Source of the DNA: a virus
Lineage: Duplodnaviria; Heunggongvirae; Uroviricota; Caudoviricetes
Virus record (IMG/VR): IMGVR_UViG_3300029288_003766
Span: 1 to 25,786 of that record
Reading direction: 5' to 3' (one strand)
DNA length: 25,786 bases
Under the pieces are notes generated by a model. The model worked only from the letters and a program-made list of their open reading frames with translations, searched no databases and had not been told where the DNA came from. Within the stretch, counting starts at the first letter, position 1; each line of letters opens with the position of its first letter. This document shows positions 6,292-14,854 of the stretch, piece by piece. Both the position numbers and the translations under genes were made by a program.

Positions 6292-6299
6292 AATTTTTT

Positions 6300-6581
6300 G
6301 ATCGACGAACTGGCTAAGGTTGTATTGAAAGATATAACTTAGGAAAGTCCGGGCTACACAGAGCAACGCAGTAGGGCTAATAACCCTACCCAGTCGTAAG
6401 GCTGAGGATTTAGAGGACAGTGACGATGCCCATTGAATTAGCAATTCTTAATATGGGAGTGAGACGACCAATCTCTGCGTGTAGCAAGTACGAACAGAAC
6501 CTGACCTGCTCGGTCTATAGGTTCGGGTCACGTACGCTAAGACAGATGGCCAGATAAACAGAACCCGGCTTATCGAAGATC
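6300..6581 (+). ncRNA. rnpB: RNase P RNA, compact (~282 nt)
   Basis: P4 signatures GGAAAGTCCGGGC (6342-6354) and ACAGAACCCGGCTTA (6558-6572); P1, P2 (CTGGC/GCCAG), P3, P9 (CAGTC-GTAA-GGCTG) and P12 are foldable. Confidence 0.93.
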
Positions 6582-6593
6582 AAAATTATTAAT

Positions 6594-9420: not shown

Positions 9421-10735
9421 TCTATTTACAAGTAAGGGCAAAGATCTTTATTTGGTAGGCGGTATAGTACGAGATAGAATTTTAGGAATAAGTAGCAATG
9501 ATTTAGATTTTGCTACAAATGCTTTGCCAAATGAATCACAAGAAATTCTAGAAGGAGCTGGTTATAAGGTTTATACTATCGGAGCTGCTTTTGGAACTGT
9601 AAGCATAATAGATAATGATTGTAAACTTGAGATAACTACCTATAGGAAGAATGAGAAGTATATTCGTGATAATCGTAGACCTGTGGTAGAATGGGGCAAG
9701 ACCATCGAAGATGATCTAATCCGTAGAGATTTCACTTTCAACGCTATGGCTATCGATAGGAATGATGCTTTAATTGATCCGTTCAACGGAAGATATTCTT
9801 TGGATAATAAAGTAATTGAAACTCCTATGGATGCTGAGGCAATCTTCAATGATGACCCTCTTCGCATTCTAAGGGCTGTTCGTTTCAGATCTCGTTTTGG
9901 ATTTAGTTATAGTGAGGGAGTGAAGAAGGCCTTGGCTTCTCAAGCTTACAGATTAATGTATCTTCCTAAGGAAAGGGTCTTGGATGAGTTAAATAAGATC
10001 CTTTTAGGTGATTATATTAAAGAAGCTTTAAATGATCTGCTTGAGTACAAGCTCCTAAATTATGTGATACCAGAGCTGACAGTTCTCAAGGATCTAAAGC
10101 AAGAAAGTAAGTTCCACCACAAGGATGCTTGGGAGCATACAGTCGGAGTTGTAGCTAATACACCGGCTGATTTAACTCTTCGCTGGGCAGCCTTGCTTCA
10201 TGATCTTGGCAAGCCATACACTTTTACATTTGAGAATAGTACAGTTCATTTCTACCGCCACGAGGATGTAAGTGCTATGCTCGCTCGATCAGTTGTTGAA
10301 AGACTGGGTTTACCAAGAAAGATGATTGAAGATGTTGTTTATCTTGTAAGAGAGCATATGAAGAGTAATCTTTATGGGGAGAACTGGAGTGATTCAGCAG
10401 TCCGAAGGTTTATCCGAGAAACAGATGGATATACTGACAGGCTGTTGACATTAAGCCATGCTGATATCACAAGTCACAATCCAATTACTGTGGCTAAGCA
10501 CCTTGATAGTCTCAGAGATCTAAGGAGACGAATTGAGGAGTTGAAGGCATACAAGGAAGTAAAGTGTCCTATTGGTGGAGATGTGATTATGAAATATTTT
10601 AATCTTACTACAGGTCCAGAGGTAGGCCGATTGAAGGATATCATAATGGAAGCTCTGACTAATGGGGAGCTTGAGTTAGGTCAAGAAGCAGAAGTGTATT
10701 TGAAGTATCTGGAAAACAAGATAAACGGAAAGTAG
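9401..10735 (+). CDS. cca: CCA tRNA nucleotidyltransferase with HD domain
   Basis: LVGGIVRD, DLDFAT, DLIRRDFTFNAMA, DDPLRILRAVRF, EHT...AALLHDLGKP; start ATG 9401 after GAGGTG; stop inside tRNA-Pro. Confidence 0.92.
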   Translation: MEKKLFDLFTSKGKDLYLVGGIVRDRILGISSNDLDFATNALPNESQEILEGAGYKVYTIGAAFGTVSIIDNDCKLEITTYRKNEKYIRDNRRPVVEWGKTIEDDLIRRDFTFNAMAIDRNDALIDPFNGRYSLDNKVIETPMDAEAIFNDDPLRILRAVRFRSRFGFSYSEGVKKALASQAYRLMYLPKERVLDELNKILLGDYIKEALNDLLEYKLLNYVIPELTVLKDLKQESKFHHKDAWEHTVGVVANTPADLTLRWAALLHDLGKPYTFTFENSTVHFYRHEDVSAMLARSVVERLGLPRKMIEDVVYLVREHMKSNLYGENWSDSAVRRFIRETDGYTDRLLTLSHADITSHNPITVAKHLDSLRDLRRRIEELKAYKEVKCPIGGDVIMKYFNLTTGPEVGRLKDIIMEALTNGELELGQEAEVYLKYLENKINGK

Positions 10736-10798
10736 CTCAGAAGGTAGAGCACTCGGTTTGGGGCCGAGGGGCCGAGATGGCAGAATTCTCCTTTCCGA
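10726..10798 (+). tRNA. tRNA-Pro(TGG) copy 1, degenerate T-loop
   Basis: CGGAAAG/CTTTCCG, CTCGG-TTTGGGG-CCGAG, T-loop GGCAGAA, no encoded CCA. Confidence 0.8.
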
Positions 10799-10974: not shown

Positions 10975-10978
10975 CATT

Positions 10979-11045
10979 TGGAATGTCGTCTATAAAGGAC
11001 ACAGTCGCGCGGACTGAGATGATAGTGCAAGCCTATCCATTCCAG
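10979..11045 (+). ncRNA. Compact tRNA-like RNA with a 5-nt anticodon loop
   Basis: TGGAATG/CATTCCA, GTC/GAC D-stem, CAGTC-GCGCG-GACTG, GATAG-TGCAAGC-CTATC. Confidence 0.6.
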
Positions 11046-11817: not shown

Positions 11818-11902
11818 GCGTCGTTGGTAGAGTGTTTATTACGCCAGCCTGTAGAGCTGGTGCCTTCGGGCTTCGGTGGTTAAAATCCATCACGACGCAC
11901 CA
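11818..11902 (+). tRNA. tRNA-Tyr(GTA)
   Basis: GCGTCGT/ACGACGC, CCAGC-CTGTAGA-GCTGG, V-arm, A73, CCA. Confidence 0.92.
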
Positions 11903-11911
11903 AACAATTAT

Positions 11912-11985
11912 GGGGCCATCGTCCAATGGGAGGACACCAGTCCTGCAAACTGGGAACGAGGATTCGACTTCCTCTGGCTCCACCA
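11912..11985 (+). tRNA. tRNA-Ala(TGC)
   Basis: GGGGCCA/TGGCTCC with G3-U70, CCAGT-CCTGCAA-ACTGG (C33), CCA. Confidence 0.9.
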
Positions 11986-11991
11986 AATTTA

Positions 11992-12121
11992 GGGGTGATC
12001 GTCTAACATCCATATAGTAGGTGCCGAGCGTCCGGCCGGAATTGGCTCAGGGCATTAGGGTATTGGATAAAGGACACTGCGGTTGACGCAGAGACGGTGC
12101 TTGAAGCACCTCACTCCACCA
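11992..12121 (+). ncRNA. Ala-identity tRNA-like RNA with a ~60-nt D-loop insertion and 5-nt anticodon and T loops
   Basis: GGGGTGA/TCACTCC (G3-U70), A73, CCA; GTCT/GGAC D-stem enclosing a long hairpin; CTGCG-GTTGA-CGCAG; GGTGC-TTGAA-GCACC. Confidence 0.72.
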
Positions 12122-12129
12122 AATAATAT

Positions 12130-12203
12130 GCGGGCATAGTTTAATGGTTGAACGTGGCTTTGCCAAGGCTAAGGTGAGGGTTCAATTCCCTCTGCTCGCT
12201 CCA
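12130..12203 (+). tRNA. tRNA-Gly(GCC)
   Basis: GCGGGCA/TGCTCGC, TGGCT-TTGCCAA-GGCTA, U73, CCA. Confidence 0.92.
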
Positions 12204-12219
12204 ATATTTAAGGAGATGT

Positions 12220-12555
12220 ATGAAAGATTTACAAAAGAAAGCATTGAAGGCCTTGAAAGAGGTAGCCAAGAAAGTACAATCTTCCGGTAGGCCATATTCA
12301 ATTATGAAAGATGGTAAAGTGGTAAGGGTTGTTTCACCAAAGAATAGTTATAAGTTTTTTCAGAATAAAAGTTGTCGGTTCTACCCCTGTCATAAAGGTA
12401 TAGCAAAGCGTGAATTTTCATGTAGTTTTTGTTTCTGCCCCATCTTCCCACAGAGGGAAGTTAACGCAGTTTGCTTGGTCTGTGGACCGTGCGAAAAATG
12501 CACATTCCCCCATAAGGCAAAGAACTATAAGAAGATAATAGAGATGTTGAAATGA
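12220..12555 (+). CDS. Cysteine-rich small domain (zf-like) protein
   Basis: YKFFQNKSCRFYPCHKG...FSCSFCFCPIF...CLVCGPCEKCTFPH; AAGGAG RBS. Confidence 0.7.
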   Translation: MKDLQKKALKALKEVAKKVQSSGRPYSIMKDGKVVRVVSPKNSYKFFQNKSCRFYPCHKGIAKREFSCSFCFCPIFPQREVNAVCLVCGPCEKCTFPHKAKNYKKIIEMLK

Positions 12556-12560
12556 TTATT

Positions 12561-12635
12561 GCCCGCGAAGCATAGATAGCGATGCGTCGGTTCTGTAAAC
12601 CGAGGAGTTCGGTGCATATCCGGACGTGGGCTCCA
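12561..12635 (+). tRNA. tRNA-Thr(TGT)
   Basis: GCCCGCG/CGTGGGC, TCGGT-TCTGTAA-ACCGA (C33), A8, CCA. Confidence 0.87.
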
Positions 12636-12641
12636 AATATT

Positions 12642-12733: not shown

Positions 12734-13030
12734 ATGGATCGTAAGAATCACGAAAAAGTAGATTTATTCTTTTGGGATAAAAAATATTCAGAAGTGCATC
12801 AATGGCTCGATGCCACTTTCCCTAAGTATGCCGGCAGGAATCCTTATAGGCATTGGCTTGAACGCCACCACATCAAGGCCATCAAAGAGAAGTTTGGTGA
12901 GTTTTATCTGGAGTATAACGTGGCCTATCTGCATATACTGGCCGATTATCTCAGCCATCATCAGATAGCCTTTGTCCCGGTGGATGAGAAAGAAGCTGAG
13001 GCTATGTTGAAAAGTTTGGGGGTGTTATAA
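12734..13030 (+). CDS. Hypothetical His-rich protein
   Basis: Start reassigned to ATG 12734 after AAGGAG; VHQWLD...RHWLERHH...HILAD suggests a metal-binding helical domain. Confidence 0.7.
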   Translation: MDRKNHEKVDLFFWDKKYSEVHQWLDATFPKYAGRNPYRHWLERHHIKAIKEKFGEFYLEYNVAYLHILADYLSHHQIAFVPVDEKEAEAMLKSLGVL

Positions 13031-13374
13031 TGGCTAACAAACTTTTATTTTCAGTAGGGAGAAAAGATTTCGATATTGAAACTTTTAGATCTGGTGGTAA
13101 GGGTGGTCAGAATCAGAACAAAGTTGAAAGTGGTGTTAGGATTAGACATTTAGAATCAGGTTGTGTTGCAGAATCAAGAGAAGAAAGAAGCCAAGGTCAA
13201 AATAAGCGTAAAGCATTCCTGAAACTTGTAAATAGTGATAAGTTCAGATCTTGGATCCGAATCAAGGCAGCCCAAGTAGCTCTAGTTATACCAACAAAGA
13301 AAGAGATGGAAAAGGCTGTTGAAGAAATGATGAAAGAAGAATACTTGAAGATCGAATACGCAGATAAGTTTTAA
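13030..13374 (+). CDS. Stand-alone class I release factor GGQ domain (ArfB/PrfH-like peptidyl-tRNA hydrolase)
   Basis: FRSGGKGGQNQNKVESGVRIRH...ESREERSQGQNKRKAF. Confidence 0.88.
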   Translation: MANKLLFSVGRKDFDIETFRSGGKGGQNQNKVESGVRIRHLESGCVAESREERSQGQNKRKAFLKLVNSDKFRSWIRIKAAQVALVIPTKKEMEKAVEEMMKEEYLKIEYADKF

Positions 13375-13542: not shown

Positions 13543-13617
13543 GCCTCGTTAGCATAGACGGTAAGTGCGTCCGCCCGAAGAGCGGAAGAGAGGGCTCAAA
13601 AACCCTACGGGGCACCA
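13543..13617 (+). tRNA. tRNA-Phe(GAA)
   Basis: GCCTCGT/ACGGGGC, TCCGC-CCGAAGA-GCGGA (C33, G37), A73, CCA. Confidence 0.83.
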
Positions 13618-14459: not shown

Positions 14460-14850
14460 GGGGGTGAGAGGATTCGACTTATATGATCTAATGTTGAATG
14501 CATGCCGTGGACGTAATGATGGCCACGTTAAAATCATTGCAAAAATTAAACGCAGACGAAAATTCTCGTTTACTTAATTCAGCAAATGAAATTGTTTCAC
14601 CTATGTTTGCTGAATCTGTGTTAGCTACTATATAGCTAATCATCACTATCGTCAGGCACAGTGGCTTTAGTGATCTGGTATGTGCTCGTTCTATAGTTTT
14701 TCTCACCTATAGAATTAAATTAAGAGATTGTCAGTGTATATTATCTATTTCTGTTAAGATGATATATGCAAAGGTTTAGATAACAGAATAAGCATGTAGT
14801 ATTTTAACGTTTGTTTATATGAGGACCCGGTTTCGATACCGGCACCTCCA
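14460..14850 (+). ncRNA. ssrA: tmRNA; tag (A)DENSRLLNSANEIVSPMFAESVLATI* at 14552-14635
   Basis: 5' GGGGGTG-AGAGGATTCGAC; 3' CCGGTTTCGATACCGG-CACCTCC-A with G3-U70; TAAAC-GCA resume context; CCA not encoded. Confidence 0.93.
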
Positions 14851-14854
14851 CTAT

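What the first reader, a model, noticed from the sequence alone, without database searches (positions are those of the whole stretch)
11992..12121. Alanylatable-looking tRNA mimic with a 60-nt hairpin in the D-loop and no usable anticodon
Seen: perfect acceptor GGGGTGA/TCACTCC with G3-U70, A73 and encoded CCA, directly after tRNA-Ala(TGC). The D-stem GTCT/GGAC encloses a long hairpin (ATCCA/TGGAT, TGCC/GGCA, GAGC/GCTC). The anticodon loop (GTTGA) and T-loop (TTGAA) are both only 5 nt. Established: G3-U70 plus A73 suffices for AlaRS charging, as in tmRNA. Inference: an Ala-charged non-decoding RNA, such as an Ala donor for peptidoglycan or lipid aminoacyl transferases, a nuclease decoy, or a rescue RNA. 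The intact ends argue against simple decay.
Basis: partly seen in the sequence, partly recalled or inferred. Interest (0 to 1): 0.82.

Follow-up and report, generated by a model that had tools for sequence, protein, structure and literature searches.

The report
tRNA-shaped phage RNA displaying conserved hairpin
This is a real, previously uncatalogued small RNA gene found in four phage contigs: a tRNA-shaped frame whose stems change freely while the 60-base hairpin in its D-loop stays almost identical, so the hairpin is probably the working part rather than alanine charging, and what it binds is unknown.

Summary
Window 11992-12121 folds as a four-arm cloverleaf with a 61-nt hairpin in the D-loop, a perfect acceptor stem, G3-U70, A73 and an encoded CCA.

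It matches no Rfam family, and ARAGORN does not call it.

I found three homologues. Two sit after tRNA-Ala(TGC) in related large phages (L016, L116). One sits in an unrelated 60-kb phage that has no tRNA genes (L095).

Across the four copies, 18 of 38 base pairs show changes on both sides. All scaffold helices covary. The two strands of the hairpin's inner loop and helix are 93-97% identical. The scaffold is 39-67% identical, and the neighbouring tRNA-Ala is only 61% identical between the window and L016.

G3-U70 occurs in two of four copies; the other two have A3-U70. An encoded CCA follows each genome's tRNA habit. The "anticodon" loop is 3-6 nt and not conserved.

Most likely the tRNA-like frame serves processing and stability, and it displays a conserved binding hairpin. 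Alanylation is possible for this copy but is not the conserved function. The ligand is unknown; resemblances to 5S rRNA loop E and RNase P L15 are untested leads.

The closest known analogue is phage T4 RNA C. This scan has noted tRNA-scaffold RNAs in other phages.

The parts
11992..12121 (+). Whole RNA gene (130 nt): a tRNA-shaped four-arm scaffold with a hairpin in the D-loop
   Evidence: Fold. CM hits. Covariation.
11992..11998 (+). Acceptor stem, 5' strand (pairs with 12111-12117). G3-U70 is at 11994/12115.
   Evidence: 7 of 7 pairs. 4 pairs change on both sides among homologues. Position 3:70 is G-U in 2 copies and A-U in 2.
12001..12004 (+). D stem, 5' strand (pairs with 12072-12075)
   Evidence: 100% paired; 2 of 4 pairs covary.
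12008..12068 (+). 61-nt hairpin inserted in the D-loop. The basal stem is 12008-12012 with 12064-12068.
   Evidence: Present at the same place in all four copies. The basal stem covaries.
12016..12027 (+). Conserved core, 5' strand: AGUAGG, UGCC, GA
   Evidence: Identical in all four copies.
12030..12044 (+). Variable apical loop of the hairpin
   Evidence: Differs in length and sequence in every copy. This argues against recent transfer of the hairpin as a block.
12047..12062 (+). Conserved core, 3' strand: UC, a 2-nt A-R bulge, GGCA, UUAGGGUA
   Evidence: 15 of 16 bases invariant in four copies; only the second bulge base varies, A or G.
12077..12091 (+). Anticodon-position stem-loop: 5 bp with the 5-nt loop GUUGA
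   Evidence: All 5 pairs change on both sides. The loop is 3-6 nt and not conserved.
12096..12110 (+). T-position arm: 4-5 bp with a loop read as 5 or 7 nt
   Evidence: 3 of 5 pairs covary. The closing pair is C-G in 2 copies and U-U in 2. R57 and A58 are kept.
12111..12121 (+). Acceptor stem 3' strand, discriminator A (12118) and encoded CCA (12119-12121)
   Evidence: A73 is invariant. CCA is encoded only in this copy, matching this genome's tRNAs.

Best explanation
This is a gene for a stable, non-decoding small RNA.

It has a tRNA-like frame, probably descended from a duplicate of the neighbouring tRNA-Ala. The frame is likely cut out of the polycistronic tRNA/mRNA transcript by the ordinary tRNA enzymes: RNase P at the 5' end, and 3' trimming plus CCA addition where CCA is not encoded. 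That would give the RNA defined ends and stability.

The frame carries, in place of the D-loop, a rod-like hairpin. The internal loop, the 6-bp helix, the 2-nt bulge and the first two pairs of the upper helix are almost invariant. That hairpin is the functional part. It most likely binds a conserved partner, probably a host factor, because no convincing phage-encoded partner is shared. The RNA would then act as a decoy, sponge or adaptor.

Shown here: the structure, the homologues, and the pattern of covariation against conservation. Inferred: the processing route, the stability role of the frame, and binding as the mode of action. Unknown: the ligand.
For: Homologues:
- L016:11158-11286, in the same slot between tRNA-Ala(TGC) and tRNA-Gly(GCC).
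- L116:13419-13545, directly after tRNA-Ala(TGC).
- L095:2743-2864(-), in a 60.5-kb phage with no tRNA and no Rfam hit, lying between two small Zn-ribbon ORFs in a ParB/RNase H/SNF2 module.

There is one copy per genome.

Covariation: 97.3% of cells are paired and 18 of 38 pairs change on both sides; 0 of 500 shuffles reach this.

Conservation: the core is 93-97% identical and the scaffold 39-67%. tRNA-Ala is only 46/75 identical between the window and L016. The apical loop in the middle of the conserved block varies, so the conservation reflects selection on the two strands, not recent transfer.

In L116 the upper helix changes from GAGC/GCUC to GAAU/AUUC, a compensatory change.

The 3' end follows each genome's tRNA style.

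With filters off, the model aligns ordinary tRNAs at 16-30 bits with the hairpin deleted. The frame is therefore tRNA-like.

The region shows no promoter or terminator signal above background. This fits co-transcription with the tRNA array.
Against:
- Only four copies are known. Two come from one sample, and two (L016, L116) are close relatives.
- The alignment was fitted to the model, which favours the structure, although the slid controls are far lower.
- No partner was identified. The only protein shared by all three phages with whole records is a coiled-coil protein with no Pfam family in the one copy scanned (the G002 copy).
- The frame lacks G18/G19 and a canonical T-loop. Efficient handling by RNase P, RNase Z and the CCA enzyme is assumed from what is known for minihelices and was not shown here.
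Confidence: 0.55

Rival explanations
1. One reading: the RNA is charged with alanine by AlaRS through G3-U70/A73 and acts as a non-decoding Ala donor or a tmRNA-like rescue RNA.
For: The window copy has G1-C72, G2-C71, G3-U70, G4-C69, A73 and CCA. L116 also has G3-U70. U70, G2-C71, G4-C69 and A73 are invariant. AlaRS charges minihelices and tmRNA (established knowledge).
Against: L016 and L095 have A3-U70, which E. coli-type AlaRS does not accept (established knowledge). There is no AlaRS, FemAB or MprF-type gene in any of the three phages with whole records. The element has no ORF, resume codon or pseudoknots, and Rfam tmRNA models do not match it. The strongest constraint lies on the hairpin, not on the acceptor end.
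Confidence: 0.1
2. The conserved internal loop is a bacterial loop-E-type motif that copies the 5S rRNA loop E, and the RNA titrates or recruits ribosomal protein L25/Ctc or another loop-E reader.
For: The L095 copy has GAGAGUAGG opposite AGGGUAG. E. coli 5S rRNA has GAGAGUAGG opposite AUGGUAG in the same antiparallel register. Loop E is the L25 site (PMC4408793). The motif AGUAGG / AGGGUA is invariant in all four copies.
Against: This is a post-hoc match of short motifs. The element has no counterpart of G72, so A104's partner is missing. The window and L116 copies are 1 nt shorter on the 5' strand and read UAUAGUAGG, which breaks the register at that end. No L25 gene is in the phages. The Rfam 5S model gives no hit at E <= 10.
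Confidence: 0.15
3. The loop is an analogue of the P15-L15-P16 internal loop of type A RNase P RNA. Its invariant GGGUA pairs with an A-C-C 3' end, either its own or that of tRNAs.
For: The Rfam RNase P consensus reads ggcc-AAAUAGG-[P16]-CGGGUa-ggcc. G292 and G293 in L15 pair with C75 and C74 (PMC1874595). The element has UAGG on the 5' strand and AGGGUA on the 3' strand of an internal loop between two helices. The discriminator A is invariant.
Against: Only 4-6 nt match. No covariation is possible because both sides are invariant. AUAG on the 5' strand is not conserved; L016 and L095 read AGAG. In a tRNA-like fold the geometry for a contact in cis is doubtful.
Confidence: 0.1
4. It is a decaying tRNA-Ala duplicate disrupted by a mobile insertion, or an intron-bearing tRNA, or a DNA-level site such as a nuclease or recombination target.
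For: It lies next to tRNA-Ala and shares that tRNA's acceptor and D-arm sequence in the window. HNH, GIY-YIG and Endo VII genes are in the array. L016 and L116 differ strongly here although their tRNA-Ala genes are 74/75 identical.
Against: Compensatory changes keep every helix in four copies. The insert is more conserved than the body, the reverse of what an intron or junk would show. Removing the insert leaves no usable anticodon loop in any copy. The element also occurs in a phage without tRNAs. The apical loop in the middle of the hairpin varies, which a recent DNA cassette or a contiguous protein-binding DNA site would not explain.
Confidence: 0.05

Closest known systems
Phage T4 RNA C (species 1 RNA, rnaC; NC_000866.4 70908-71046) and RNA D
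   Same: Both are small stable RNAs encoded inside a phage tRNA cluster. RNAfold gives RNA C the same four-arm plan: a closing stem, a ~60-nt hairpin at the D-arm position, an anticodon-position hairpin and a T arm. The function is still unknown (PMC3014915, PMC9697503).
   Different: No sequence or CM homology: R2 gives 5.9 bits, E 2.4, on rnaC. T4 RNA C has a canonical UUCGAAU T-loop. Its long hairpin does not contain the conserved core found here.
tmRNA tRNA-like domain (Rfam RF00023)
   Same: Both have an acceptor stem with G3-U70, A73 and CCA in this copy, an altered D region and no anticodon. A true tmRNA lies 2.3 kb downstream in the same array.
   Different: The element has no tag ORF and no pseudoknots. 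It gives no RF00023 hit. G3-U70 is not conserved. An anticodon-position stem is present.
Bacterial/phage Y RNA YrlA (Rfam RF02553)
   Same: A tRNA-like module is joined to a conserved protein-binding helix (PMC4201824).
   Different: The topology is reversed. In YrlA the 5' and 3' ends form the Ro60-binding stem. Here the ends form a free acceptor stem and the conserved helix is internal. There is no Rfam hit.
Engineered tRNA scaffolds for RNA expression, and herpesvirus tRNA-miRNA (TMER) genes (own knowledge)
   Same: A tRNA body is used to obtain processing and stability for an unrelated structured RNA.
   Different: Those carry the cargo in the anticodon arm or downstream of the tRNA. Here the cargo sits in the D-loop of a natural phage gene, and the tRNA elbow is lost.
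Canonical tRNA-Ala (Rfam RF00005)
   Same: In the window copy the acceptor and D-stem sequences are close to the adjacent tRNA-Ala(TGC). With the hairpin deleted, the model cross-hits tRNAs.
   Different: Neither ARAGORN nor RF00005 calls it. It lacks a 7-nt anticodon loop, G18/G19 and a TΨC loop.

Membership tests
Canonical tRNA (RF00005) | Scores at or above the Rfam gathering threshold, or is called by ARAGORN | tested here: not met
   No RF00005 hit even at E <= 10 over 11900-12220. ARAGORN does not call it.
Canonical tRNA (RF00005) | 7-nt anticodon loop with U33 and a conserved anticodon | tested here: not met
   The loops are GUUGA, CGUAGU, GGUUC (or GUU with a sixth stem pair) and GUUGU in the four copies.
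Canonical tRNA (RF00005) | D-loop G18/G19 and a T54-Ψ55-C56 loop that form the elbow | tested here: not met
   The D-loop is replaced by AAC + hairpin + AAA. The T-loop is Y-K-Y-R-A-N-N at best.
tmRNA (RF00023) | tRNA-Ala-like acceptor with a conserved G3-U70 | tested here: not met
   G-U in 2 copies, A-U in 2 copies.
tmRNA (RF00023) | Tag reading frame, pseudoknots and a match to the covariance model | tested here: not met
   No RF00023 or permuted-tmRNA match of note; the best is 13 bits at E 1.1, and it overlaps tRNA-Ala. The element is only 130 nt.
Intron-containing tRNA | Removing the insert restores a functional tRNA, and the insert is less conserved than the exons | tested here: not met
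   No anticodon loop remains after removal. The insert core is 93-97% identical and the body 39-67%.
YrlA / Y RNA (RF02553) | The 5' and 3' ends form the Ro60-binding stem, and an rsr gene is nearby | tested here: not met
   The ends form an acceptor stem with a free 3' tail. There is no Rfam hit. No Ro60 family was found among the neighbouring ORFs scanned.
T4 RNA C-type stable RNA of phage tRNA clusters | Four-arm tRNA-like plan with a long hairpin in the D position, encoded in a tRNA cluster | tested here: met
   Folds compared. The location is in the array. This is likeness of plan only; no homology was detected.
Bacterial loop E motif (5S rRNA type) | Two antiparallel strands that give the series of non-Watson-Crick pairs G-A, A-U, G-G, A-G, G-U, U-A, A-G | tested here: inconclusive
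   The L095 strands match E. coli 5S at 15 of 16 letters. However, the last pair has no partner, and the window and L116 copies are 1 nt shorter. No 3D or probing data exist.
RNase P type A L15 CCA-binding loop | An internal loop between two helices with a GG(U) that pairs with C75, C74 (and N73) | tested here: inconclusive
   An invariant AGGGUA lies in an internal loop, against the consensus CGGGUa. Pairing with a 3' end cannot be tested with these tools.

The most novel reading that the evidence does not exclude
The invariant loop is a portable copy of a cellular RNA recognition surface, either 5S rRNA loop E or the CCA-binding L15 loop of RNase P. Phages mount it on a tRNA frame to capture a host translation factor or the 3' ends of tRNAs during infection. 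This would be an RNA-based way to manipulate the host's translation or tRNA-maturation machinery, shared by unrelated phages.
Probability: 0.15. Interest if true: 0.85.

Novelty: new variant of a known kind. Interest (0 to 1): 0.58.

Why it matters
Phage tRNA clusters have been known since the 1970s to encode tRNA-like stable RNAs, such as T4 RNA C and D, and their roles are still unknown.

This element gives that class a member with an unusually clear signal. Every scaffold helix drifts and compensates, while a ~30-nt two-stranded core stays fixed, even in an unrelated phage that has no tRNAs. That points an experiment directly at the functional surface, for example a pull-down with the hairpin as bait.

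It also shows that a tRNA look-alike with G3-U70 and CCA need not be about alanine.

If the ligand proves to be a ribosomal protein, RNase P or tRNA 3' ends, this would be a new kind of RNA-based host takeover. It would also be a natural counterpart of the engineered tRNA scaffold.

Tried and rejected
- Rfam at gathering score and at E <= 10: no family for the element.
- blastn against 50,697 phage records: only the ordinary tRNAs matched.
- blastn-short and nhmmer of the element against the first relatives: nothing.
- Neighbour-protein routes: the zf-like protein gave unrelated loci without tRNAs. The CCA enzyme as a single query found nothing in IMG/VR.
- A first structural DNA pattern that assumed a conserved scaffold found nothing.
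- Patterns on the conserved core found only the same two contigs in IMG/VR and JGI metagenomes, and nothing in the GTDB genome contigs (one genome per species).
- Model R2 over 91 sources (the window and 90 loci, 1.29 Mb), and with filters off over the nearest relatives: no further hairpin-bearing copy.
- The closest relatives by CCA enzyme lack the element. L005/L006 have an ORF in the slot, L007 has nothing, L011 has tRNA-Ala(GGC), and L017 and L115 have a different 75-nt mimic.
- Search for a shared partner protein among the three phages: one coiled-coil protein with no Pfam family in the G002 copy, the only copy scanned.
- L25, AlaRS, FemAB and MprF-C: absent from the three phages.
- Idea that the hairpin supplies L15 to a phage RNase P RNA in trans: dropped. 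The tRNA-less phage has no RNase P RNA, and relatives without the element do have one.
- MAFFT alignments of the element were structurally wrong, so model-based alignments were used instead.
- Two papers on loop E structure were not held.

Full report
**What is there**

- a 7-bp acceptor stem with G3-U70, then A73 and CCA;
- a 4-bp D stem enclosing a 61-nt hairpin (12008-12068);
- a 5-bp stem with a 5-nt loop at the anticodon position;
- a 4-nt variable region;
- a 5-bp stem with a 5-nt loop at the T position.

RNAfold returns this cloverleaf as both the minimum-energy and the centroid structure: -50.6 kcal/mol, z = -2.95. ARAGORN finds 32 tRNAs and a tmRNA in the window but not this element. 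Rfam finds no family for it, even at E <= 10.

**Context**

The window is the first 25.8 kb of a 214,968-bp IMG/VR phage record rated complete by CheckV. The element lies in a co-oriented array that holds:
- tRNAs, an RNase P RNA (6298-6587) and a tmRNA (14460-14851);
- an RNA ligase, a CCA-adding enzyme, HNH and Endo VII nucleases, two metallophosphoesterases and an RF-1-domain hydrolase.

It starts 6 nt after tRNA-Ala(TGC) and ends 8 nt before tRNA-Gly(GCC). The region shows no promoter or terminator signal above background.

**Homologues**

Sequence searches failed. I collected related tRNA arrays through the CCA-adding enzyme. I then searched them with a covariance model built from the single sequence.

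Three homologues came out:
- L016:11158-11286, in a 135.5-kb phage (G001), again between tRNA-Ala(TGC) and tRNA-Gly(GCC). Its CCA enzyme is 56% identical to the window's.
- L116:13419-13545, on a 23-kb contig closely related to G001, directly after tRNA-Ala(TGC).
- L095:2743-2864(-), found with a DNA pattern on the conserved hairpin.

The L095 copy lies in a 60.5-kb phage (G002, 95% complete). That phage shares almost no proteins with the others and has no tRNA gene and no Rfam family. There the element sits between two small Zn-ribbon ORFs in a ParB/RNase H/SNF2 module.

Each genome has one copy. Core patterns found no further copy in IMG/VR, the JGI metagenomes or the GTDB genome contigs (one genome per species). 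The improved model found none in 1.29 Mb of related loci, with or without filters.

Several of the closest relatives lack the element at this slot:
- L005/L006 have a ~145-aa ORF there.
- L007 has nothing.
- L011 has tRNA-Ala(GGC).
- L017 and L115 have a different 75-nt tRNA-like RNA.

**Pattern of change**

On the four-sequence alignment (A5), 97.3% of cells are paired and 18 of 38 pairs change on both sides. No shuffle out of 500 reaches this. Sliding the partners by 1-3 columns gives 31-44% paired.

The acceptor, D, anticodon-position and T-position stems and the basal stem of the hairpin all covary. The inner part of the hairpin does not change:
- the 5' strand AGUAGG-UGCC-GA is identical in all four copies;
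- the 3' strand UC-(A-R bulge)-GGCA-UUAGGGUA differs only at the R.

In L116 the upper helix changes from GAGC/GCUC to GAAU/AUUC, which is compensatory. The apical loop differs in every copy.

Core identity is 93-97% and scaffold identity 39-67%. The adjacent tRNA-Ala is only 46/75 identical between the window and L016. The core is therefore under stronger constraint than a working tRNA. Because the loop in the middle of the core varies, the conservation cannot be a recently transferred block.

The RNA is clearly maintained and clearly non-decoding. The features that suggested alanine charging are not conserved:
- Position 3:70 is G-U in the window and L116, but A-U in L016 and L095.
- CCA is encoded only in the window copy. 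That tracks genome habit: 26/32 window tRNAs encode CCA, against 2/18 in L016 and 2/17 in L116.
- No AlaRS, FemAB or MprF-type gene is present in the three phages with whole records.

U70, G2-C71, G4-C69 and A73 are invariant. In the large phages the acceptor resembles the neighbouring tRNA-Ala. This fits descent from a tRNA-Ala duplicate, with A3/G3 drifting. The window copy may well be chargeable, given what is known about AlaRS and minihelices, but that is not what selection is holding on to.

The T-loop may be 7 nt rather than 5. The closing pair is U-U in two copies, and R57 and A58 are kept.

**Most likely mechanism**

Shown:
- a conserved structured RNA;
- tRNA-like enough that the model aligns ordinary tRNAs at 16-30 bits once the hairpin is deleted;
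- a 3' end that follows each genome's tRNA style.

Inferred:
- RNase P and the 3'-end/CCA machinery release it from the polycistronic transcript.
- The frame gives it stable, defined ends.
- The D-stem plus hairpin forms a long rod that presents the invariant internal loop, the tandem G-U pairs, the 4-bp helix and the 2-nt bulge to a partner.

The element works in a phage that shares almost nothing else with the window's phage. The one protein common to all three whole records is a coiled-coil protein with no Pfam family in the G002 copy, the only copy scanned. The partner is therefore probably a host component.

**Two leads for the ligand**

Both started from memory and were checked only at the level of letters.

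(a) Bacterial loop E. L095 has GAGAGUAGG opposite AGGGUAG. E. coli 5S rRNA has GAGAGUAGG opposite AUGGUAG, and that site binds L25 (PMC4408793). However, one pair has no partner, the window and L116 copies are a base shorter, and the phages encode no L25.

(b) The L15 loop of type A RNase P. The consensus is AAAUAGG / CGGGUa between two helices. Its GG pairs with C75 and C74 of the tRNA 3' end (PMC1874595). The element has UAGG / AGGGUA in an internal loop and an invariant discriminator A.

Neither lead can be tested with the tools at hand.

**Comparison with known systems**

The closest known thing is phage T4 RNA C (species 1 RNA). It is encoded in the T4 tRNA cluster and folds into the same plan, with a long hairpin at the D position. 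Its function is still unknown (PMC3014915, PMC9697503). No homology is detectable.

The element fails the defining features of a canonical tRNA, tmRNA, YrlA and an intron-bearing tRNA (see the membership table).

Earlier notes of this scan describe tRNA-scaffold RNAs with foreign inserts in other phages (e1-1845031, e1-194351, e1-1689172). They concern other DNA and other insert positions, and I did not test them.

**Limits**

- There are only four sequences, two of them closely related and two from one sample.
- The alignments were fitted to the model.
- E-values come from a shortened calibration.
- The host is unknown.

Noticed in passing
window 10978-11045; L005:11412-11480; L006 (same sequence): A 67-nt tRNA-like RNA lies right after tRNA-Pro(TGG). 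It shares the UC-GUCU...GGAC-AC D arm with the element and with tRNA-Ala. It is conserved in the 68%-identity relatives, with compensatory changes in the acceptor, anticodon-position and T stems, and it keeps a GCGCR 5-nt loop.
   Followed up: partly
L017:10208-10283; L115:8998-9073: A different ~75-nt tRNA-like RNA occupies the same slot between tRNA-Ala(TGC) and tRNA-Gly(GCC). Both copies encode A-CCA, although only 1 of 29 and 2 of 29 tRNAs in those loci do.
   Followed up: partly
window 6298-6587; L017:4803-5065; L115:3389-3660: Phage-encoded RNase P RNAs of only 260-290 nt score just above the Rfam threshold. Large parts of the specificity domain are missing. In the window copy the L15 strand shows no GG, although alignment confidence is low there.
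   Followed up: partly
L095:2855-2864 (- strand): In the 60-kb phage, the last sense codon and the TAG stop of the upstream Zn-ribbon ORF lie inside the element's acceptor 5' strand. RNase P cutting would therefore remove the stop codon from that mRNA.
   Followed up: no
L016:11075-11286 versus L116:13334-13545: tRNA-Ala is 74/75 identical between these two contigs, yet the adjacent element's scaffold is only 67% identical and the downstream neighbour differs. This suggests a recombination breakpoint or unusually fast change at the element.
   Followed up: no
window 12561-12636: A tRNA-shaped gene that ARAGORN does not call has the anticodon loop UCUGUAA (Thr UGU with C33) and an encoded CCA. 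Rfam also calls tRNAs at 10726-10798 and 13543-13614 that ARAGORN misses.
   Followed up: no
L111:1909-2047 (- strand; T4 rnaC): T4 RNA C folds with z = -4.6 into a four-arm tRNA-like plan with a ~60-nt hairpin in the D position and a canonical UUCGAAU T-loop. T4 RNA D shows no significant fold (z = -0.8).
   Followed up: partly
window 13030-13374 and 14460-14851: An RF-1-domain (ArfB-like) protein gene and a tmRNA with a 27-residue tag lie in the same array. The relatives L016, L017, L115 and L116 also carry tmRNAs.
   Followed up: no
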